Source: a virus
Taxonomy: Duplodnaviria > Caudoviricetes
Direction: 5' to 3' (one strand)
Length of the DNA: 53,781 nucleotides
Virus record (IMG/VR): IMGVR_UViG_3300020464_000005
Coordinates: 1-53,781 of that record
Each line of letters begins with the position of its first letter. The stretch's first letter is position 1. The notes under the pieces were generated by a model, which saw nothing but the letters and a program-made list of their open reading frames with translations, searched no databases and was not told the DNA's origin. This document shows positions 543 through 40,175 of the stretch, piece by piece. The position numbers and the translations under genes were made by a program.

Positions 543-1643
543 ATGACTGATCAAATTGATATTGAAGAACTAATTGAAGAAAAAAATCAAGTAGGTGATG
601 TTATATCTTTTAAGACTAACATTCCACCAAAATGGAATGTATCATTAGATGACTGTGGATATAAACAGTTGCCCAATGGTACTGAATTTGTACATGGTGA
701 TGTACGCAATATTAGACTGTTCGAAGATGTTGGAACAGTTGAACCAGTTCCATTATTTGTAGATAAACCATTTGGCGTAGGTATGGGAACAATGCAAAAA
801 CTTGAAAAGTATCGAGGGCTTATTTCAACGCATACTGGTGATGTTTTAAACTGTCGACCTATCTCTGATACTTACAAACTTGTTAATCATTCAGAATTAT
901 TTGAAAAGCAGGGAAAGCATTTGCAGGATAACAGTGATCTACCTTTAAACAATGTTGAAGTAATTGATCGAGTTTACGAGAATGGTAGACGTGCTAGTCG
1001 CACAATTCATTTTAATGATCTTAAAATGGATGTAGGTCAAAATGATCTTGTTAAATGTCGTTTAGATGTTTTTAATTCTGTTGATATGTCTTGGGCTTTT
1101 CAAGTATTTAGTGGTGCTTATAGATCGCTATGTCGTAACACTCAGGTATTTGGTGGTGAGAAAGCTTATCAACAAAAACATTTGCATAGTAAAAATTTAA
1201 ATGTCGATGCTTTGCTTAACAATGCAAATACAAGTCTGTCAGCTTGGAATAATAATAAAGAACAGATGATAGCTTGGAAAAGGTCACCAATTTCAGATAA
1301 AGAGTTTGCAACGTTTTTAGCAAATACACTATGTCAAGTTGATCGAGGTGTTGGCAGTCGCTTGGTTGCTGATAGTGAATACAAAGTCAACAACAAGTTA
1401 TTAAACTTTTTGACGCAAGTATTTCAAAAAGAAAGTCAAGACTGTGGTCGTAATATGTGGTCGGCTTATAATGCTCTGACTTATTGGTCAACCCATACTG
1501 ATGCAGAATATGTCGATGTCGATGGTAAAAGTCAGCGTATTGGTGAAACAAAGTCAAAACACACTGTTCAAGTCCTGAGACAAAATAAAGTCAGACAATT
1601 GTTGTCATCTGATGCGTGGAATGAGTTGTCACTGGTTGCGTAA
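543..1643 (+). CDS. DUF932-family (phage/plasmid-like) protein
   Basis: Family-like motifs YKLVNH, NSVDMSWAFQV..GAYRSLCRN, WSAYNALTYWSTH. Confidence 0.75.
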   Translation: MTDQIDIEELIEEKNQVGDVISFKTNIPPKWNVSLDDCGYKQLPNGTEFVHGDVRNIRLFEDVGTVEPVPLFVDKPFGVGMGTMQKLEKYRGLISTHTGDVLNCRPISDTYKLVNHSELFEKQGKHLQDNSDLPLNNVEVIDRVYENGRRASRTIHFNDLKMDVGQNDLVKCRLDVFNSVDMSWAFQVFSGAYRSLCRNTQVFGGEKAYQQKHLHSKNLNVDALLNNANTSLSAWNNNKEQMIAWKRSPISDKEFATFLANTLCQVDRGVGSRLVADSEYKVNNKLLNFLTQVFQKESQDCGRNMWSAYNALTYWSTHTDAEYVDVDGKSQRIGETKSKHTVQVLRQNKVRQLLSSDAWNELSLVA

Positions 1644-9698: not shown

Positions 9699-9732
9699 GT
9701 ATATGGCCGCACAAAATTTAAAGGATAACTAA
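9502..9732 (+). CDS. Small helical post-portal protein overlapping the portal 3' end
   Basis: AAGGGG SD; ELRQLQGKLRLLETLK resembles small post-portal proteins; stop coupled to the next ATG. Confidence 0.65.
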   Translation: MLNKQQASKLSPLVNNQQAWVALEEHLQHLTEMTVQALMAAPLESELRQLQGKLRLLETLKGLKSEYMAAQNLKDN

Positions 9733-11900
9733 TGATAGACGCACCTGTTTTTCCAATAATTAACAACCCCAATGAGTATAGGCGAGGAAAGTTTAGTTTC
9801 TTTCATACGTATTTTAAGTCTTTATATCCTAGCATGTATAATGATATGTTAAAAAATATGGGGCAAGACACAGAACCTACACCAGATCCTGCACCACAAC
9901 CTACAGATCCTATAATGATGCAACCTCAAAGACAAGAAAAATCTGCTGAAGAAATTGCCGCAGCAAATAAAATAAGGATGCAGGATAGACTTGCAGGTAA
10001 GTATACAATTCAAGGACAAGTTGTAGGGCAACAATTACCAGAGTTCACAGGGGATGAAAAAGGAATTAATCCTGTAGTTAATAAATGGATAACAGGAAAA
10101 GAATCAGATGATGTTTTTGAAGGGTTAGGTAAATTAGGAAAAGTAAGTATATTTAGGGGATTAAGTAAACTTAATAATCCAGCTCACGAAAAAAATATTC
10201 AACAAATGATACAGAGTAAAGGCGAAATGGGTGGTGCTGCAATGTTGTACGATCCATCAACAAATAGTTATGTTGGTGTTAGCTTAAATGAACAAGATTT
10301 AGGAGAACAAACAGCTTCACTTATTAAAGGTATCACAGGTATTGATTCAAATAAACGATATAATTTTGTTGGTAATTTACCCCCTGTTGCAGTATTTGGT
10401 GGTGAGGTCTACGATACGACAAATGCAAAAGATAGACAAAACTTAATATTGGCTATTAAGAGTGAAGCTCCAAAACAATTTAATGAGTATATTAATAGAG
10501 TTGAGACAAATGTAACAGGAACAGAACAATCATTAGATGTCTTTCAAAAAGATACTAGAGAACAAACATCTACAGATGAAACGGTATATAGTTCTGCAGG
10601 GTTAGACGATGCGGCAAAACAACGTGCATTAGATGCAGCACGTGATGATAGAGAGCGAGAAAGAGCAGAAGCTCAAGGTAAAGCAGATGCAGTAAAAATT
10701 TCTGACAAGGTAATTCAAGATCAATTTAAAGCTGAATATGACCTTAGAGAATTTAACACTGGTGGCTTTATAGGTGGAATGAACCCAGATCAGGTAACAG
10801 ATGCACAAACTGTAGCTGATGATTACCCAATAGATTCTGATGATGGCGACTTTATGATTAATGCCGCAGCGATAGAAAAAGATCCACAAAGATTTAATGA
10901 GATTATATCTGCAGGATTACAAAAGGCACGAGAAAAAGGTATTGAAGTTGGAGATATTTCAGGAGTTGGTATGGATGAGTCTGGAGATGTATTAGCATCT
11001 AAAGGTGAGTTTCTTGTTAAAAAACCTCTTGCTGAAACTATTGGATACGACACATTAAATCAATTTAATGATCAAGGCAAATCAGAAGTTGACAGACGAG
11101 TTGCAGCATCAGGTGGGTTTTTAGATGGATACGCAAATGGGGGAGAAGTTGACCTTCCTGCTACTCGACCTAGTGCTGGGTTGCTTAATTTATATGATGC
11201 AATAAAAGAAAGATTTCCCGGAGGACTTGAACCTGCAAGAAAAACAACAAAAGAGTTTTTAAATCAAATGTCTGATGAAGAAGCTTTAGCTTTAACAGCT
11301 ATTACAGAAGCCAGTATCTTAGGTGAAAAAGGACTTGAGAGTGTAATGCATGTTGTAAACAACAGAATAAACTCTGACTATCAAGATTTTAAAAGCCAGT
11401 TTAATGTAAAAGATGTATTGAACAGACAAACTGCTGGTGGTGCATTTCAATTTACAGGGCTTGAGATAAAAGGTGACAAAAACTTTGCTGATCTACGAAC
11501 ACACGTAACCGAACTTGTAACAAACCCAAAAGCATACAGAAATTATATGAAAACTGTTGACATAGCAAGAGATGTGTTAGCAGGAAAAAGAAAAGATTTT
11601 ACAGGTGGAGCATTGTTTTATTATAATCCAAAAGCTTCTACCTCAGAAGATTTCAAAAATAAAGTAGCAGATAGAACTTATGTGCCTATATATTATATGA
11701 GAGGAAAAGGATCACAACATATTTATTTTTCTCCTCAAGATATATATAGACCTGAGTTACCTGTATCTAAACCAGAAACTCCTGCTAAAAGGATACAGAA
11801 GAAATTTGCACAACCCAGTTTTTTAGACGATAAAGTTGATTTAAGTGGACAAGGTATGTTTGGAACATACTTACAAAATAGACCTTCTTTACAATATTAA
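9732..11900 (+). CDS. Putative virion protein with C-terminal SleB-like (Hydrolase_2) cell-wall hydrolase
   Basis: ALTAITEA (E526), VMHVVNNR, FQFT, TGGALFYYNP, HIYF; central FNTGG...YANGG module. Confidence 0.75.
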   Translation: MIDAPVFPIINNPNEYRRGKFSFFHTYFKSLYPSMYNDMLKNMGQDTEPTPDPAPQPTDPIMMQPQRQEKSAEEIAAANKIRMQDRLAGKYTIQGQVVGQQLPEFTGDEKGINPVVNKWITGKESDDVFEGLGKLGKVSIFRGLSKLNNPAHEKNIQQMIQSKGEMGGAAMLYDPSTNSYVGVSLNEQDLGEQTASLIKGITGIDSNKRYNFVGNLPPVAVFGGEVYDTTNAKDRQNLILAIKSEAPKQFNEYINRVETNVTGTEQSLDVFQKDTREQTSTDETVYSSAGLDDAAKQRALDAARDDRERERAEAQGKADAVKISDKVIQDQFKAEYDLREFNTGGFIGGMNPDQVTDAQTVADDYPIDSDDGDFMINAAAIEKDPQRFNEIISAGLQKAREKGIEVGDISGVGMDESGDVLASKGEFLVKKPLAETIGYDTLNQFNDQGKSEVDRRVAASGGFLDGYANGGEVDLPATRPSAGLLNLYDAIKERFPGGLEPARKTTKEFLNQMSDEEALALTAITEASILGEKGLESVMHVVNNRINSDYQDFKSQFNVKDVLNRQTAGGAFQFTGLEIKGDKNFADLRTHVTELVTNPKAYRNYMKTVDIARDVLAGKRKDFTGGALFYYNPKASTSEDFKNKVADRTYVPIYYMRGKGSQHIYFSPQDIYRPELPVSKPETPAKRIQKKFAQPSFLDDKVDLSGQGMFGTYLQNRPSLQY

Positions 11901-14428: not shown

Positions 14429-15058
14429 ATGTTACTTCAATTACTAACTCCAGAAGAGGTAGACTTCTGTGTCAAAAATACCTGCCAAATGGAAGATGGC
14501 TCAAAATCTAAGCCACTCACAGGATCAAAAAATAATGAAGAATCAACAAACATGCCTGATAAGGTACGTGAATTAATAACACAAAGAATATACAATAATC
14601 CATTTGTTGATGCAGTAATAAACCCTACAAAAGTATCGGTAAATTTTTATAACCAATACAATGAAGGGGGGCATTATGATAAACATATAGATAACTTCAA
14701 AGCTGAACCCAAAATAAATAATACATATTTTGACTATGGATTTTCTATATGCTTAAATAGTGATTACGATGGTGGAGAATTTATTGTTGATAATGAAATA
14801 GGTCAGATACCCTATAAGTTACAAGCAGGACAAGTTCTTTTCTTTCCTATAATATATGCTCATACAGTCGCACCAATTAAAAAAGGAGTGCGAAAAGCAA
14901 TTATAGGTTGGATGTCTACTAACATAACATATGAACAAACCTATATACTGCGTAACATATATGATGTTAATATGCATTTTGTAAAAGAAAATAATAATGA
15001 AATGGCTGTAAAGTCTACTTTAACACAAAACTATTTAAAAAAGTTATGGGGAAAATAA
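14429..15058 (+). CDS. 2OG-Fe(II) oxygenase, PKHD/PiuC-like
   Basis: YDKHID (HxD), YDGGEF, H-T-V..R-K-A-I-I-G-W. Confidence 0.85.
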   Translation: MLLQLLTPEEVDFCVKNTCQMEDGSKSKPLTGSKNNEESTNMPDKVRELITQRIYNNPFVDAVINPTKVSVNFYNQYNEGGHYDKHIDNFKAEPKINNTYFDYGFSICLNSDYDGGEFIVDNEIGQIPYKLQAGQVLFFPIIYAHTVAPIKKGVRKAIIGWMSTNITYEQTYILRNIYDVNMHFVKENNNEMAVKSTLTQNYLKKLWGK

Positions 15059-15064
15059 CTTAAA

Positions 15065-15247
15065 TTGATCTGGATTCTAATAGTATTTTTAATAGGAACA
15101 GACGTAAAAGAAGAAATATATTTTCAAGATTTAAATATTTGTTTAGAATATTCTAATAAAGTACAAAACCAAAACAACCATCAAAGAGTTGCAGGGGATA
15201 AAATATACATTAAAGCATACTGTATCCCAAAGAAAGAGAATAAATAA
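15065..15247 (+). CDS. Small protein with hydrophobic N-terminus and Cys pair
   Basis: TTG start; WILIVFL; C...YCIP. Confidence 0.5.
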   Translation: MIWILIVFLIGTDVKEEIYFQDLNICLEYSNKVQNQNNHQRVAGDKIYIKAYCIPKKENK

Positions 15248-15537
15248 TGGCATCTAAAAAAGGCGATATGAAAGGTCACACTATAAAGGGTGGACACAAG
15301 CGACCCACTAAAGCAGGTGCTGGAATGACTAAGAAAGGTGTTGCAAAATACCGAAGAGATAACCCCGGAAGTAAACTTAAAACAGCCGTTACAGGTAAAG
15401 TTAAAAAGGGAAGTAAAGATGCAAAGCGTAGGAAATCATATTGTGCTAGATCTGCAGGACAAATGAAAAAGTTTCCTAAAGCAGCAAAAAATCCAAACAG
15501 TCGATTACGACAAGCAAGGAGAAGGTGGAAATGTTAA
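15247..15537 (+). CDS. Highly basic phage protein
   Basis: K/R-rich; RRKSYCARS and SRLRQARRRWKC resemble a recurrent phage family. Confidence 0.75.
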   Translation: MASKKGDMKGHTIKGGHKRPTKAGAGMTKKGVAKYRRDNPGSKLKTAVTGKVKKGSKDAKRRKSYCARSAGQMKKFPKAAKNPNSRLRQARRRWKC

Positions 15538-15782
15538 AAGGGGGTCAAAAAAAATTAGATAAGAATAAAGATGGCAAAATTAGTGGTGCTGACTTTAAGC
15601 TTATGAAAAAAGGTGGAAAGAAAAAATCCACTAAAAAGAAAAAAGGTGCAACACCTAAAAATAAAGCTTTATATGCAAGAGTAAAAGCTGAAGCAAAAAG
15701 AAAATTTAAAGTATACCCATCAGCATATGCAAATGCGTGGTTAGTGCGTACGTATAAGAAAAGGGGTGGAACTTACGCATAA
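15531..15782 (+). CDS. Basic protein with EF-hand-like loop and MxxGG motifs
   Basis: LDKNKDGKISGADF; MLKGG, MKKGG; YPSAYAN. Confidence 0.7.
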   Translation: MLKGGQKKLDKNKDGKISGADFKLMKKGGKKKSTKKKKGATPKNKALYARVKAEAKRKFKVYPSAYANAWLVRTYKKRGGTYA

Positions 15783-16027
15783 TGGCTAAACCCAAAGGTG
15801 GACTAACAAAATGGTTCAAAGAAGATTGGCGAGATGTTAAAACTGGCAAGAAGTGTGGCAGATCTGGTAAGGAAAAGAAATCTAGACCGTATCCTGCGTG
15901 TCGCCCTAAATCTGTAGCGAAAAGGATAAGCAAAGCAGAAGCACGTAAGAAAACAGGACCTAAAGCTGTAAAATGGTCTGTAACTGCTTCTGGGAGAAAA
16001 CGCAAAAAAACAAGGAGAAAAGCGTAG
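15782..16027 (+). CDS. Basic protein (DUF5872-like)
   Basis: GGLTKWFKEDW, CGR, YPACRP. Confidence 0.65.
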   Translation: MAKPKGGLTKWFKEDWRDVKTGKKCGRSGKEKKSRPYPACRPKSVAKRISKAEARKKTGPKAVKWSVTASGRKRKKTRRKA

Positions 16028-16236
16028 TGTGGATTCCAGTAATTACAATTTTATGGGCATTGGGGGATAATGCAACATGGGTAAACTTTCCAATGGTTAA
16101 TTTTCCATTTACTTCATCAGATAATTGTTACAAGTATGTAGCAAAGGTAAGATCTAGTATAACACAAGATCCTCAATATTTAAACGGATATAGCACTTGC
16201 GTATACATTGGTAAACCAACAGGAGAAAACACATAA
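16027..16236 (+). CDS. Small protein with hydrophobic N-terminus and Cys pair
   Basis: GTG coupled to previous stop; AGGAG SD. Confidence 0.55.
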   Translation: MWIPVITILWALGDNATWVNFPMVNFPFTSSDNCYKYVAKVRSSITQDPQYLNGYSTCVYIGKPTGENT

Positions 16237-16625
16237 TGTTTCAAGCATTGTTAGGACCGATAAGTGAACTTGCAGGATCATTCATGCAAGGACAGATAGA
16301 GAAACAGAAAGCTAAAGCAACATTAGCACAAACCAAAGCTGCAGCAGAAGCAGAGATTATGAAGACTGCGGCAACCCATGATTCAAAGTGGGAAATAATA
16401 ATGGCACAGGGTACTCAAAACTCGTGGAAAGATGAAGTGATTACAATCGTGGTGTTGATTCCAACAATTTTAGTATTCATTCCCGGTATGGAAGATGTGG
16501 TTAAAAACGGATTTCAACGACTTAATGAATTACCAGAGTGGTATACGTATCTTTTATTCTTAACAGTTTCTGCTGGATTAGGAATAAAAGGAATAGATAA
16601 ATTTAAAAATATGAGGAGTAAATAA
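16236..16625 (+). CDS. Putative holin-like membrane protein
   Basis: SWKDE followed by two hydrophobic segments, LPEWY; near lysozyme. Confidence 0.6.
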   Translation: MFQALLGPISELAGSFMQGQIEKQKAKATLAQTKAAAEAEIMKTAATHDSKWEIIMAQGTQNSWKDEVITIVVLIPTILVFIPGMEDVVKNGFQRLNELPEWYTYLLFLTVSAGLGIKGIDKFKNMRSK

Positions 16626-16801
16626 TGGCTGGAATGAAGAAGTCTAAAGCAATGGCTAGAGGTGGTAAAAAATCTAAGGCTATGGCAAAAGGGGGTATTG
16701 CAAAAGGCATAGCTAAAATTAAAGGTAAGAATGGTGCTAAAACAAAAATGAAGTATGGTGGCAAGAAATCTAAAGCTATGGCTAGAGGTGGCAAGAGATA
16801 A
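16625..16801 (+). CDS. 58-aa basic repeat peptide (KKSKAMA[RK]GG x3, MKYGG)
   Basis: GAGGAG SD; TAATG coupling; repeats conserved as protein with synonymous DNA changes; missed by ORF track. Confidence 0.8.
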   Translation: MAGMKKSKAMARGGKKSKAMAKGGIAKGIAKIKGKNGAKTKMKYGGKKSKAMARGGKR

Positions 16802-16804
16802 TTA

Positions 16805-17482
16805 GTGTCATACCTTATAAGTAACGTACCCCATTTTCATTGTTGGGTACGTAAAGAGTTTACTTGCAATCATCAAAGGTATCATGGCGAATTTCTACAC
16901 GCTATGGTTATTGCAGTAAACACTATCCCAGACCGATCACTAAGTTTTCAAGTTGTATTTACAGGATGTGAATCAGATTTAGAAGACGGTATGGAAAATA
17001 TACATGGGGGAGCAATGTGGGCTAGGATGCCAATACAAGCTTTGGTAGCCGACATTCCTGTAGATGAATGGCCCACTCCCATGCAAGATCATTTAGCACA
17101 ACCTTGGGATTGTGAATCAAGACATCATAGCGTTATTGTGATGGATAGAGTAAGTTCTAGTCCGTGGTTATGCAAGATAGATAACGAGTTTTACAAAGGT
17201 AAATACCTATTCACTGTAGACTACACAGATAGTGATATAGCTGATGATCCTGCACAACACAAACAAAGTCATGTGTTATATCTTACAGATGCAGGAGAGT
17301 GGACAGGTAATTTAGTTGCATTACCAAATAACAGAGTTCGTGCAACAAGTCCTGCTTTATGGAGAACAGGTGAAGGTCCTCCAGACTTTGCACCATCTCA
17401 GTGGACACACTCTGCTGAACAACATGAAAGTTATTTAGATCCACATATTACATTTAATAATTTGTATCAGGAGAGTGATTAA
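16805..17482 (+). CDS. Conserved hypothetical phage protein (WDC / HKxSH / PNNR); candidate protease
   Basis: 225-aa globular-looking ORF; the protease role is inference only. Confidence 0.75.
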   Translation: MSYLISNVPHFHCWVRKEFTCNHQRYHGEFLHAMVIAVNTIPDRSLSFQVVFTGCESDLEDGMENIHGGAMWARMPIQALVADIPVDEWPTPMQDHLAQPWDCESRHHSVIVMDRVSSSPWLCKIDNEFYKGKYLFTVDYTDSDIADDPAQHKQSHVLYLTDAGEWTGNLVALPNNRVRATSPALWRTGEGPPDFAPSQWTHSAEQHESYLDPHITFNNLYQESD

Positions 17483-17733
17483 TGGCTTGTAAATGTGGAA
17501 AAGAAGTATGTAGTTGTTCACAAGATTTAATTCCTGATAAAATGGCATACCAAGTAAATAAAAGGAGAATGGCTTGGGTTTTAATTATTCTTATGGGTAT
17601 TACCACTATCCTAACTTTAGCATTTCCAAACAGACTTGCAGAAGCAGAGAGTATCCTTATGACACAATACATAAGTATGTGTGGTTTAGTAGGGGCATAT
17701 TTTGGTTTTAGTGCAATTAGTGGAAGAAAATAA
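17482..17733 (+). CDS. Two-TM membrane protein (holin-like)
   Basis: RRMAW followed by two hydrophobic segments, VGAYFG. Confidence 0.6.
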   Translation: MACKCGKEVCSCSQDLIPDKMAYQVNKRRMAWVLIILMGITTILTLAFPNRLAEAESILMTQYISMCGLVGAYFGFSAISGRK

Positions 17734-17739
17734 TGGTTT

Positions 17740-17985
17740 ATGGAAGGAATTTTACAATACTGGGAGCAACTAATATTTTTTCTCGGTGCTTTAGTTGTAG
17801 CTGTTAAGTTGCATACTGAAGTAACTACATTAAGAAAGGATGTAGATAAGCTGGAAGAAGATTGTAAAAGTGCTAATGAAAAAATACAAACTAATTTTGT
17901 AAGTTCGGTAAGAACCGAAAGTGCAGTTAAAGAAACAGAAAAAAAAATAGAATCTTTATTTATATTACATAATAAAAAGGAATAA
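17740..17985 (+). CDS. TM plus coiled-coil protein
   Basis: N-terminal hydrophobic helix followed by heptad-like region. Confidence 0.6.
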   Translation: MEGILQYWEQLIFFLGALVVAVKLHTEVTTLRKDVDKLEEDCKSANEKIQTNFVSSVRTESAVKETEKKIESLFILHNKKE

Positions 17986-17987
17986 TA

Positions 17988-18446
17988 GTGGAAACAATAA
18001 TAGATAGACTACGTGTAGAATTAGAACAAGATGAAGGTTGCAAGTACCACATATATTTAGATCATTTAGGACTAGCCACAGGAGGGATAGGGCATTTGAT
18101 TAAAGAGTCTGATCCAGAGCATAGTAAACCTGTAGGTACAGTTATAAGTAAAGAACGAGTTGATGAATGGTTTGAACAGGACATTATGACTACAATACAT
18201 GACTGTAAAAAAGTATTTGATGATTGGAATGCTATGGATGAACAAGTAAAACTAATCATGGCAAATATGATGTTTAATCTCGGATACCCAAGATTTTGCA
18301 AATTTAAACTAATGATACAGGCTGTAAGAGATGGCGACCACATCGAAGCCGCAAATCAAATGAAACAGAGCAGATGGTACAAACAGGTAACAAACAGAGC
18401 AGAAAGACTGATAAGCCGAATGAAAGGTGTCGATTTACACAAATAG
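17988..18446 (+). CDS. Endolysin, T4-type lysozyme (GH24)
   Basis: DEG..IYLDHLG..TGGIGH (E-D-T triad), NMMFNLG, SRWYKQV.NRA. Confidence 0.9.
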   Translation: METIIDRLRVELEQDEGCKYHIYLDHLGLATGGIGHLIKESDPEHSKPVGTVISKERVDEWFEQDIMTTIHDCKKVFDDWNAMDEQVKLIMANMMFNLGYPRFCKFKLMIQAVRDGDHIEAANQMKQSRWYKQVTNRAERLISRMKGVDLHK

Positions 18447-18536
18447 AACTTATCAAGCAACAAGACAGGGAAAAACATAAGCTAACCTTGTCTCAATATT
18501 TTAAACCTAGAGACAGGGAATTTAAAGGATATAAAC

Positions 18537-19016
18537 ATGCTTGACCCAATCACCCTATCTGCCGCTGTTAGTGGGGCAACAGCCGCATATAATGGCATAA
18601 AAAAAGCCATTATGATGGGTAAGGAAATTGAAGATTTAGGATCTCAATTGTCCACATGGATGTCGGCTGTAAGTGATGTAGATAACATTCACAAAAATGC
18701 AAACAGTCCTTCAACGTTTGATAAACTATTTAATGGCTCAATTGAACAAGTTGCAATAGAGTCTTTCGCAAGTAAAAAGAAACTTGCAAAGCAAAGAGAA
18801 GAACTTAAAAATTTTTTAGTGGCACATTACGGAACAAAGGCATGGGATGATTTGATCCGTGAAGAAGGTCGTATAAGACGAGCTAGAAAGGAAGCTGTGT
18901 ATGCTAGGGAAGAAAAAAACAGACAGATACGAGACTATACCATCATAGGCATTGCATCACTCATAGGATGTGGAGCATTGGGATGGATGGTATGGATAAT
19001 AACTCTTTCCGTTTAG
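18537..19016 (+). CDS. Hypothetical protein with C-terminal TM
   Basis: AAGGA SD; 159 aa; C-terminal hydrophobic helix. Confidence 0.7.
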   Translation: MLDPITLSAAVSGATAAYNGIKKAIMMGKEIEDLGSQLSTWMSAVSDVDNIHKNANSPSTFDKLFNGSIEQVAIESFASKKKLAKQREELKNFLVAHYGTKAWDDLIREEGRIRRARKEAVYAREEKNRQIRDYTIIGIASLIGCGALGWMVWIITLSV

Positions 19017-19285
19017 CTTTACTCACATTAGCTTTTGTTATTTATATCCTGTTAGGGATAAGTGAAGCAAGAGGTGAAATGACGACTTGTAGATTAGCAA
19101 GTCAAATACTGGGGAACAAACAACGTGTGTGTGTATTTATTGGAGCAAACAATACTCAATATCGAGAATACCTTCCGTATGATGCTGGAGAGTGTCCAAG
19201 AGAGTATCAATGCCCTTATAGACCGAATGAAGAACCCTTTGACATAAAAAGTGTAATAAAAAGCATAAAAGACCAATTTAAATGA
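18992..19285 (+). CDS. Putative secreted Cys-rich protein
   Basis: Signal-like N-terminus; TCRL, VCVF, CPREYQC; start uncertain. Confidence 0.6.
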   Translation: MDNNSFRLALLTLAFVIYILLGISEARGEMTTCRLASQILGNKQRVCVFIGANNTQYREYLPYDAGECPREYQCPYRPNEEPFDIKSVIKSIKDQFK

Positions 19286-39887: not shown

Positions 39888-40073
39888 ATGAAAACATATT
39901 ACAACGGACCACGACAAAGAATGATGTATGGTGGCATGAGTATGGGAACAACTCTTGGTAGTACAATGGGGCAAAAAGATCAGATGAAATCTAATCGTAT
40001 GCGAACTACTATGGGAAACAACCCAATGATGCAACCCATGAAGTATGGTGGCAAAAAACAGAAAAAAAAGTAG
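39888..40073 (+). CDS. Met-rich basic peptide with MMYGG and MKYGG
   Basis: AAGGAG SD; 61 aa. Confidence 0.7.
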   Translation: MKTYYNGPRQRMMYGGMSMGTTLGSTMGQKDQMKSNRMRTTMGNNPMMQPMKYGGKKQKKK

Positions 40074-40101: not shown

Positions 40102-40175
40102 GTGCTGAGAGGGGTAGAACTATAGTCTCTAGTGTATATGTACCAGAGAAATAGCTTTACCCCTCTCAGTGTTTT
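40102..40175. other. Long imperfect hairpin between convergent operons
   Basis: CTGAGAGGGGTA (40105-40116) / TACCCCTCTCAG (40158-40169) plus inner CTAT/ATAG and TCTCT/AGAGA pairs. Confidence 0.7.

What the first reader, a model, noticed from the sequence alone, without database searches (positions are those of the whole stretch)
16625..17482. Candidate di-glycine (MxxGG) maturation system: repeat peptide plus adjacent putative Cys protease
Seen: an unannotated 58-aa peptide is built from MARGG/MAKGG/MKYGG/MARGG units. The same [MFY]-x-x-G-G motif recurs in otherwise unrelated late proteins: MLKGG and MKKGG (15531), MMYGG and MKYGG (39888), FNTGG and YANGG (9732). The next gene (225 aa) has W-D-C103, H152-K-x-S-H156 and PNNR. 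I recognise no conventional prohead protease in the genome. Established: adenovirus protease cleaves (M/L/I)xGG|x in basic core proteins and ASFV pS273R cleaves GG|x. Inference: an undescribed phage system in which a GG-specific protease processes basic core peptides and ejection proteins; alternatively the motif is a capsid-packaging tag or a ubiquitin-like conjugation end.
Basis: partly seen in the sequence, partly recalled or inferred. Interest (0 to 1): 0.82.

Follow-up and report, generated by a model that had tools for sequence, protein, structure and literature searches.

The report
Repeat basic peptide with two-barrel partner
A marine phage carries an overlooked gene for a very basic repeat peptide that is almost always next to a gene long mislabelled "PurM", whose product looks like a peptide-binding double barrel and not a protease.

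Summary
The 58-aa repeat peptide (16625-16801) and the 225-aa gene (16805-17482) are real. The window is a complete HMO-2011-type podovirus genome.

- **Coding:** codons that differ between repeat units are 14 synonymous against 2 non-synonymous.
- **Linkage:** the two genes form a strongly conserved pair in marine phage contigs. The peptide lies upstream of the gene in 76 of 80 loci found through the protein. The gene is present in 69 of 80 loci found through a peptide DNA pattern alone. It is always on the same strand, in either order.
- **Motif:** the MxxGG excess sits only in three small basic proteins. The FNTGG and YANGG sites are chance.
- **Family:** the 225-aa protein belongs to phrog_3704, labelled "PurM" or "ferredoxin" in cyanophage and pelagiphage records. 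It has no Pfam or NCBIfam match.
- **Fold:** a confident model shows two SH3/Tudor-like beta-barrels. All three PDB lists are dominated by Tudor, chromo, Agenet and SH3-type barrels.
- **Proposed catalytic residues:** Cys103 is replaced in 6 of 25 homologues and His152 varies. In the repeat unit Met sits at P5, not P4.
- **Charge:** the protein is acidic (net -17) and the peptide is +21.

Best reading (0.4): a binding or escort partner of polybasic mini-proteins, not a protease (0.12). The function is untested. Earlier notes of this scan describe the same Met-x-x-Gly-Gly joint in crAss-like phages.

The parts
16613..16618 (+). GAGGAG ribosome-binding site 6 nt before the peptide's ATG. The stop of the upstream 129-aa gene overlaps that ATG (TAATG).
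   Evidence: Read directly from the sequence.
16625..16801 (+). Gene for a 58-aa polybasic repeat peptide (net +21, pI 11.9). It has three KKSKAMA[RK]GG units, one MKYGG unit and a KGIAK spacer.
   Evidence: ORF. Between units, 14 synonymous against 2 non-synonymous codon differences. Charge. Homologous repeat peptides lie beside the family gene in related loci.
16805..17482 (+). Gene for a 225-aa acidic protein (net -17, pI 5.05) of phrog_3704, predicted as two SH3/Tudor-like beta-barrels (about residues 4-90 and 108-183). It starts at GTG, 3 nt after the peptide's stop.
   Evidence: phrog_3704 at E 6.3e-30. No Pfam or NCBIfam match. Model pLDDT 86.2, pTM 0.82. Fold lists. Conservation.
15247..15537 (+). 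96-aa very basic protein (DUF6321). This family travels with the pair in many unrelated backbones.
   Evidence: Pfam DUF6321 at E 1.7e-12. Context table. Charge.
15525..15782 (+). 85-aa basic protein. Its N-terminal part carries MLKGG, an EF-hand-like loop and MKKGG. Its C-terminal part matches DUF5872 profile positions 1-39.
   Evidence: In homologues the N-terminal part varies, and the motif is present in only some of them.
15782..16027 (+). 81-aa basic protein matching DUF5872 profile positions 51-91.
   Evidence: E 3.1e-5, below the curated cut-off. Context.
39888..40073 (+). 61-aa Met-rich basic peptide with MMYGG near its start and MKYGG followed by a lysine tail at its end. It is the last gene of the structural operon.
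   Evidence: It has 42 related loci in IMG/VR, and relatives keep several M-x-Y/M-G-G units.

Best explanation
Shown: this is a conserved two-gene module of marine phages. One gene encodes a genuinely translated, intrinsically polybasic peptide made of 3 to 11 units with consensus K-x-K-[Y/G]-M-A-K-G-G. The other encodes an acidic protein of phrog_3704 that models as two SH3/Tudor-like beta-barrels.

Inferred: the two-barrel protein is a non-proteolytic binding partner (reader, escort or chaperone) of the repeat units, and probably of the other polybasic mini-proteins encoded beside it. It would hold these polycations until they reach their target. The peptide itself would act as a multivalent polycation on nucleic acid. 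The most likely target is phage DNA in or on the way into the head, because the module sits among late genes.

Binding, the target and virion location are all inferred, not shown.
For: **The peptide is coding**
- Synonymous against non-synonymous codon differences between units are 14:2 in the window and 41:6 in locus L053.

**Linkage from the protein side**
- 76 of 80 IMG/VR loci with a homologue at 80% identity or more have the repeat peptide directly upstream.
- In a subfamily only 40% identical, 7 of 19 loci have clear MxxGG peptides. All 9 loci printed, including 8 that failed that rule, have a Lys/Met/Gly-rich peptide overlapping the gene's start.

**Linkage from the peptide side**
- 19 of 22 loci found with the peptide as query hold the gene.
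- 69 of 80 loci found by a bare DNA pattern for two MAKGG units hold it. In all 69 it is on the same strand, and in 67 of them within 410 nt. The peptide is upstream in 52 and downstream in 17.
- 7 of the 11 misses lie within 412 nt of a locus end.

**Persistence of the pair**
- The pair persists in backbones that share almost no other gene with the window.
- The gene order changed at least 5 times on a quick tree.

**Fold**
- The model has pLDDT 86.2.
- Every one of the top 50 rows of the second-look list is a Tudor, chromo, Agenet, SAWADEE, PWWP, BAH, KOW or SH3b-type barrel. The best is Z 6.6, rmsd 3.1 over 72 residues. The list includes the UHRF1 tandem Tudor bound to a polybasic peptide.

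**Charge and neighbours**
- Net charge is -17 for the protein against +21 for the peptide.
- In HTVC033P, which lacks the repeat peptide, the family gene gp43 heads a row of seven small, lysine/arginine-rich proteins.
Against: - No direct evidence of binding exists.
- The fold matches are at barrel level only (Z under 8, which the tool says may reflect a common arrangement).
- No Tudor, Agenet or SH3 sequence profile matches.
- The nearly invariant residues are mostly polar (D102, T137, D139, K153, H156, N175, N176, R177, E205). That would suit an enzyme's active site as well as a binding site.
- Family members in cyanomyophages, HTVC008M, HTVC027P and HTVC033P have no MxxGG repeat peptide. 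The family's basic function therefore does not need it.
- The loci used mix protein-first and peptide-first sampling and include near-duplicates.
Confidence: 0.4

Rival explanations
1. Protease and substrate. The 225-aa protein cuts after Gly-Gly and releases 10- to 12-residue basic peptides from the repeat precursor and from other MxxGG proteins.
For: - Tight gene linkage in both orders.
- Every unit ends in GG, and the peptides end GG plus 2 to 5 residues.
- Cys103 and His156 are both present in the window protein and in the peptide-linked homologues I aligned.
- No other protease was found in the genome.
Against: - The model is all-beta with two small barrels.
- Cys103 is replaced in 6 of 25 homologues. 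His152 is Asn in the peptide-linked 40%-identity subfamily. His156 is Asn in HTVC008M and S-SM2.
- Met is at P5 and Ala/Ser at P4, unlike the adenain rule.
- No peptidase profile matches.
Confidence: 0.12
2. Modifying enzyme and multi-core substrate (RiPP-like). The two-barrel protein chemically modifies Lys, Met or Gly in each repeat unit, and in relatives without the peptide it modifies some other substrate.
For: - A repeated core with a variable copy number of 2 to 11 units, as in multi-core precursors (recalled knowledge).
- Adjacency of the two genes.
- A cluster of nearly invariant polar residues, including PNNR.
Against: - No enzyme family matches by sequence.
- No cofactor-binding motif was recognised.
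- No leader or recognition segment is evident in the peptides.
Confidence: 0.15
3. No direct interaction. These are two independently acting late accessory genes, a polycation and an unrelated two-barrel protein, kept adjacent because they are co-expressed or translationally coupled and move together as a cassette.
For: - The family works without the peptide in myophages and three pelagiphage isolates.
- MAKGG repeats also occur in other, longer basic proteins with no family gene nearby (L162, L169, L172, L192).
- No fusion of the two was found in 0 of 218 family genes.
Against: - Adjacency survives at least 5 order changes.
- It survives divergence of the protein to 40% identity.
- It survives transfer into backbones that share almost nothing else.
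Confidence: 0.2
4. The repeat is not a protein gene but a DNA or RNA element, such as a ribosome-loading leader for the next gene.
For: - Lys-Gly-Gly codons can resemble Shine-Dalgarno sequences.
- Gene callers rarely call the peptide: only 7 proteins matched in 5.8 billion.
Against: - Strong excess of synonymous differences between units.
- The reading frame, start and stop are kept in 136 distinct peptides.
- The element also lies downstream of the gene.
- The Gly codons are not the GGA that such a signal would need.
Confidence: 0.03

Closest known systems
Adenovirus core precursors pVII and pre-Mu with adenain (peptidase C5, clan CE); ASFV pS273R
   Same: Very basic, probably DNA-associated small proteins punctuated by Gly-Gly motifs preceded by a hydrophobic residue, encoded next to a dedicated partner gene.
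   Different: - The partner models as two beta-barrels, not a clan CE fold.
- Its Cys is not conserved.
- The hydrophobic residue is at P5, not P4.
- No cleavage is known.
- The adenain rule used here is the one quoted in the finding.
Tandem Tudor / Royal-family readers, such as the UHRF1 tandem Tudor domain bound to a polybasic peptide, SETDB1, 53BP1 and SMN Tudor with RG tails
   Same: Two small five-stranded barrels in tandem. The genomic partner is a Lys/Arg-Gly-Gly-rich peptide, which resembles the basic or RG-rich ligands of these domains (ligand types are recalled, apart from the entry titles).
   Different: - Similarity is at barrel level only (best Z 6.6).
- No sequence-profile match.
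- An aromatic cage could not be checked.
- This is a phage protein with no known methylation system.
Phage T4 internal proteins IPI-III with their capsid-targeting sequence and the gp21 prohead protease
   Same: Small basic proteins encoded among late genes that may travel with the DNA. Short shared motifs could serve as tags.
   Different: - No prohead protease was found here.
- The motif is different.
- A dedicated two-barrel partner has no T4 counterpart.
- Knowledge of the T4 system is recalled.
SH3b cell-wall-targeting domains, such as the staphylococcal autolysin AtlE R2ab repeats and the lysostaphin SH3b that binds pentaglycine
   Same: SH3-like barrels, with AtlE listed at Z 5.8. By recalled knowledge there is precedent for recognition of oligoglycine. 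In the window the pair sits beside a lysozyme and membrane-protein genes.
   Different: - In most other loci the pair is not in a lysis context.
- The partner is a phage-encoded cytoplasmic peptide, not peptidoglycan.
PurM (AIR synthase), the name this family bears in cyanophage and pelagiphage records and papers
   Same: Only the label (passages read in PMC3037559, PMC6293099 and bioRxiv 10.1101/2019.12.14.876532).
   Different: - No AIRS or any other Pfam or NCBIfam match.
- All-beta two-barrel model.

Membership tests
phrog_3704 (labelled 'ferredoxin'; GenBank 'PurM') | Significant match to the family profile over most of its length | tested here: met
   E 6.3e-30, residues 1-207 against profile positions 1-195 of 223. 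tblastn finds 108 phage records, 95 of them covering at least 80% of the query.
Adenain-type GG protease (peptidase C5, clan CE) | Match to a peptidase sequence profile | tested here: not met
   No Pfam family at E up to 0.1. No NCBIfam family. The only PHROG match is phrog_3704.
Adenain-type GG protease (peptidase C5, clan CE) | Alpha/beta clan CE fold | tested here: inconclusive
   The model is all-beta with two barrels. The rows listed are barrel domains. A family that is not listed is not thereby excluded.
Adenain-type GG protease (peptidase C5, clan CE) | Invariant catalytic Cys and His | tested here: not met
   Cys103 is V, S, A or N in 6 of 25 aligned homologues, and His152 varies. The position is Ser in HTVC033P gp43. 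His156 is Asn in HTVC008M and S-SM2.
Adenain-type GG protease (peptidase C5, clan CE) | Substrate sites (M/L/I)-x-G-G with the hydrophobic residue at P4 | tested here: not met
   In 713 units from 136 distinct peptides, P4 is Ala 71% or Ser 10%, and Met (73%) or Tyr (14%) is at P5.
Adenain-type GG protease (peptidase C5, clan CE) | Cleavage after Gly-Gly | not testable with these tools
   Needs mass spectrometry of the expressed peptide or of virions.
PurM / AIR synthase | AIRS and AIRS_C domains | tested here: not met
   No Pfam or NCBIfam match at E up to 0.1. All-beta model.
Ferredoxin | Match to a ferredoxin profile | tested here: not met
   No Pfam or NCBIfam match. No Cys is invariant across the 25 aligned homologues.
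Tandem Tudor / Royal family | Five-stranded SH3-like barrels in tandem | tested here: inconclusive
   Foldseek probability up to 0.97 but E 4.6e-3 and TM about 0.2. Best VIA Z values are 6.2 and 6.6, each covering one barrel. Z under 8 may reflect only a common arrangement.
Tandem Tudor / Royal family | Aromatic cage that holds the ligand's Lys or Arg | not testable with these tools
   F48, W101 and Y134 are invariant or nearly so.
Tandem Tudor / Royal family | Match to a Tudor, Agenet, chromo or PWWP sequence profile | tested here: not met
   No Pfam match at E up to 0.1. A profile search of PDB sequences gives only two chance-level rows at E 0.056.
T4-type internal proteins with a prohead protease | A prohead protease gene in the same genome | tested here: not met
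   No protease family was found by PHROGs or Pfam in the ORFs scanned. Not every small ORF was scanned.

The most novel reading that the evidence does not exclude
Marine phages encode their own reader-and-ligand pair: a tandem Tudor/SH3-like protein that recognises Lys-Gly-Gly units on a family of modular polycationic mini-proteins. Together these would organise or condense nucleic acid, as a phage-made chromatin-like or condensate-forming system. The Met-x-Lys-Gly-Gly unit would be the portable docking tag, also borne by other phage proteins.
Probability: 0.15. Interest if true: 0.85.

Novelty: categorically new. Interest (0 to 1): 0.62.

Why it matters
**The family is very common in the sea**
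- 1,158 protein clusters at 90% identity.
- More than 600 IMG/VR stretches.
- 108 cultured-phage records.

**It is misnamed.** The literature counts it as a purine-synthesis auxiliary metabolic gene (passages read in PMC3037559, PMC6293099 and bioRxiv 10.1101/2019.12.14.876532). The results here indicate that this name is wrong, which affects metabolic readings of marine viromes.

**Its partner is overlooked.** In a large clade it is tied to a peptide gene that gene callers almost never call.

**What follows.** The pair gives a concrete, cheap experiment on what the many lysine-rich mini-proteins of marine phages do.

**Status in print.** My searches found no paper describing the pair, the fold or the motif.

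Tried and rejected
- **Complex prediction.** The 225-aa protein (alignment A1) was folded with the 58-aa peptide. The result was no verdict (score 0.00, mark 0.32), so it counts neither for nor against binding.
- **Search with another peptide.** The repeat peptide of locus L053 as query found nothing in four phage records. It also failed to find the window's own peptide, so the method is blind to this peptide. I replaced it with motif scans.
- **tblastn of the peptide** against cultured phages gave no match. The low-complexity filter may be the reason.
- **P0203 as query** in IMG/VR gave no confirmed locus.
- **The 'longer' protein search** for fusions gave one 454-aa singleton that holds only the last three quarters of the family sequence behind an unrelated N-terminus, probably a chimeric gene call. 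No peptide-protein fusion was found in 0 of 218 family genes.
- **Other libraries.** The ESM Atlas gave only scores under 0.9. PADLOC gave none. The PDB sequence profile search gave two chance-level rows.
- **Protease folds.** No protease appears in the rows listed. This does not exclude one.
- **Motif words in papers.** The search returned only surnames and noise.
- **Cys103-His distance.** It could not be measured because no coordinates reach the script box.
- One row (L110) was mis-registered and is ignored. In one search a loose composition rule flagged S-SM2 as having a basic upstream peptide, but the annotated upstream ORF is not one.
- **Tree.** The careful tree search did not finish, so only the quick tree is used.

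Full report
**What the window is.** The window is a whole IMG/VR virus record of 53,781 bases, estimated complete. It encodes a large terminase, a portal, a scaffold-like protein (phrog_13678), a major head protein and tail proteins. On the other strand it encodes class II ribonucleotide reductase, DNA polymerase and a DnaB-type helicase. Its nearest cultured relatives by DNA are HMO-2011-type phages such as Pelagibacter phage HTVC033P (the group is described in PMC9038755, of which I read passages only). Compared with HTVC033P, about 5 kb is inserted between the head gene and the tail gene, at 14429-19285. The insert holds these genes:
- a 2OG-Fe(II) oxygenase;
- several very basic small proteins;
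- membrane proteins;
- the peptide and the 225-aa gene;
- a lysozyme.

**The observation.**
- The 58-aa ORF (16625-16801) and the 225-aa ORF (16805-17482) are as described.
- The peptide is a real coding gene. Codons that differ between its three full units are 14 synonymous against 2 non-synonymous. In the five units of a relative (L053) the count is 41 against 6.
- It has a GAGGAG site 6 nt before its ATG.
- The antisense ORF at 16603-16794 is a by-product of the repeat.
- Met three residues before Gly-Gly is enriched in the proteome: 11 of 90 GG sites against 2.6 expected. All of the excess lies in three small basic proteins of 58, 85 and 61 aa. The other 68 proteins have 3 of 81 against 2.3 expected.
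Those in the 85-aa and 61-aa proteins are not.

**The pair is conserved.**
In 76 of these 80, an ATG-started ORF ending at or just before the homologue's start is a basic repeat peptide.
  - Two of the four exceptions start within 50 nt of the locus end.
  - One has the portal gene upstream.
  - One (L010) was later flagged as having the motifs with a looser start rule.
- *Searching with the peptide* gave 22 loci, 19 of them with the family gene. In seven of these (72% identity) the gene lies upstream of the peptide.
  - 69 of the 80 hold the family gene, always on the same strand. In 67 of them it lies within 410 nt.
  - The peptide is upstream in 52 and downstream in 17.
  - Seven of the 11 misses are within 412 nt of a locus end.
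  - The other four (L162, L169, L172, L192) carry MAKGG repeats inside other, longer basic proteins.
- *A subfamily only 40% identical* (query P0172, 19 loci) was scanned by the MxxGG rule. Seven loci have clear motif peptides. I printed the ORFs around the gene for 9 loci, and all 9, including 8 that failed the rule, have a Lys/Met/Gly-rich peptide whose end overlaps the gene's start.
- *Backbones differ.* Many carrier loci share with the window only the pair and DUF6321- or DUF5872-type basic proteins.
- *A quick tree* was built on 58 representatives of 218 near-full-length family genes.
  - The sampled loci fall on one side of a long, supported branch. On the other side are the five cultured-phage rows that lack the peptide.
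  - Within the first group the upstream/downstream label needs at least 5 changes across supported branches.
  - The sampling mixes protein-first and peptide-first loci, the root is a midpoint, and the careful search did not finish.

**The peptide family.** In 136 distinct peptides with 713 units, the consensus before Gly-Gly is Lys at -5 (84%), Met at -3 (73%, Tyr 14%), Ala at -2 (71%) and Lys at -1 (71%, Arg 11%). Peptides have 2 to 11 units and a median length of 77.5 residues. Copy number differs between near-identical phages. Gene callers rarely call the peptide: only 7 proteins matched in the large protein collection. The same unit occurs as a mosaic piece in other small basic proteins:
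- the 61-aa family at the end of the structural operon;
- proteins that combine the unit with an EF-hand-like loop;
- the ends of long basic proteins.

**The 225-aa protein.**
- *Family.* It belongs to phrog_3704 and has no Pfam, NCBIfam or PADLOC match.
- *Distribution.* Homologues at about 28% identity are in 108 cultured-phage records, mostly cyanomyophages, and are labelled PurM, phosphoribosylaminoimidazole synthetase or ferredoxin. Papers treat the gene as a purine auxiliary gene (passages read in PMC3037559, PMC6293099 and bioRxiv 10.1101/2019.12.14.876532).
- *Model.* A model from a 25-sequence alignment is confident (pLDDT 86.2, pTM 0.82) and all-beta.
- *Fold searches.* Foldseek against the PDB finds nothing at E 1e-3 or better, and its weak rows are tandem Tudor and Agenet proteins. 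The wide VIA search gives a best Z of 6.2, and its rows cluster on residues 4-90 and 113-183. In the second-look list all 50 rows are Tudor, chromo, Agenet, SAWADEE, PWWP, BAH, KOW or SH3b-type barrels, with a best Z of 6.6. These Z values show barrel-level likeness only.
- *Viral structures.* BFVD returns only uncharacterised phage proteins.
- *Conservation.* Cys103 is not conserved (6 of 25 homologues replace it), and His152 varies. Nearly invariant are W101, D102, Y134, T137, D139, K153, H156, P174-N-N-R177 and E205.
- *Charge.* The protein is acidic (net -17) and the peptide is +21.

**Relatives without the peptide.**
- In HTVC027P the gene follows DNA polymerase. In HTVC008M it lies between the two ribonucleotide reductase subunits. 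In S-SM2 and S-SCSM1 it precedes the baseplate genes gp25 and gp6.
- Whole-genome motif scans of HTVC027P, HTVC008M and HTVC033P found no clustered MxxGG peptide.
- HTVC027P has three single [M/F]-x-K-G-G sites in small proteins. HTVC033P has none.
- HTVC033P does hold a family member, gp43, followed by seven small lysine/arginine-rich proteins.
- RefSeq labels the S-SCSM1 homologue a virion structural protein. The paper reports 45 virion proteins by mass spectrometry, but the list is in supplements that I could not open.

**Reading.**
- The protease idea fails on the conservation of its proposed catalytic residues and on the register of the motif, and the fold gives it no support.
- The linkage, the barrel folds, the opposite charges and the company of other polybasic mini-proteins fit best a binding or escort role for the two-barrel protein towards polycationic peptides. 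I give this 0.4.
- I cannot exclude a modifying enzyme (0.15), a protease of a new kind (0.12) or mere co-carriage (0.2).
- The complex prediction gave no verdict.

**Earlier notes of this scan.** They are unchecked. They describe the same Met-x-x-Gly-Gly joint in crAss-like phages (e1-5996083, e1-6019246). Another note describes an unknown 230-aa protein with basic mini-proteins in a lambda-like marine phage (e1-3269444).

Noticed in passing
window 15525-16027: Pfam DUF5872 is split over two adjacent, overlapping ORFs. The 85-aa protein matches profile positions 1-39 and the 81-aa protein matches positions 51-91. In relatives the first half also stands alone.
   Followed up: partly
window 15525-15782 (residues 9-27): An EF-hand or dockerin-like calcium-loop motif sits between the two MxKGG sites (Pfam EF-hand_1 at E 0.0012, below the cut-off). 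The same loop recurs next to MxxGG units in other marine phage mini-proteins.
   Followed up: partly
window 16236-19285: The pair is embedded in what looks like a lysis cassette. It holds a 129-aa phrog_2524 protein, an 83-aa protein with a hydrophobic stretch, an 81-aa coiled-coil protein with a faint Rz-like match, a phage lysozyme (17988-18446), and two further small proteins with hydrophobic ends.
   Followed up: no
window 40105-40169: A 19-nt inverted repeat (89% complementary, 27-nt loop) lies just after the 61-aa peptide gene, where the two convergent gene blocks meet. It is likely a two-way terminator.
   Followed up: partly
window 9732-11900: The 722-aa protein after the portal carries a cell-wall hydrolase domain (Pfam Hydrolase_2 at E 4.7e-8, residues 532-643). 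It may be an ejected or internal virion lysin.
   Followed up: no
window 14429-15058: A 2OG-Fe(II) oxygenase gene (Pfam E 8.4e-11) lies between the head genes and the basic mini-protein cluster. It is present in some close relatives only (L103, L108).
   Followed up: no
L379 (HTVC033P 15748-17736): The family member gp43 is followed by seven small lysine/arginine-rich proteins (gp42 to gp36). These include DUF5872- and DUF6321-like ones. None has a Met-x-x-Gly-Gly repeat.
   Followed up: partly
L083 3141-3299 (HTVC027P gp12); L122-L129 upstream ORFs: A tiny Cys/His-rich protein, possibly metal-binding, lies next to the family gene in HTVC027P and in the 40%-identity subfamily.
   Followed up: no
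L021 3828-4001: In one relative the upstream peptide keeps its Lys/Met/Ala repeat but has Gly-Thr or Gly-Arg in place of Gly-Gly in all units but the last.
   Followed up: no
window 543-1643: A DUF932 protein (Pfam E 1.3e-16) sits near the left end of the genome.
   Followed up: no
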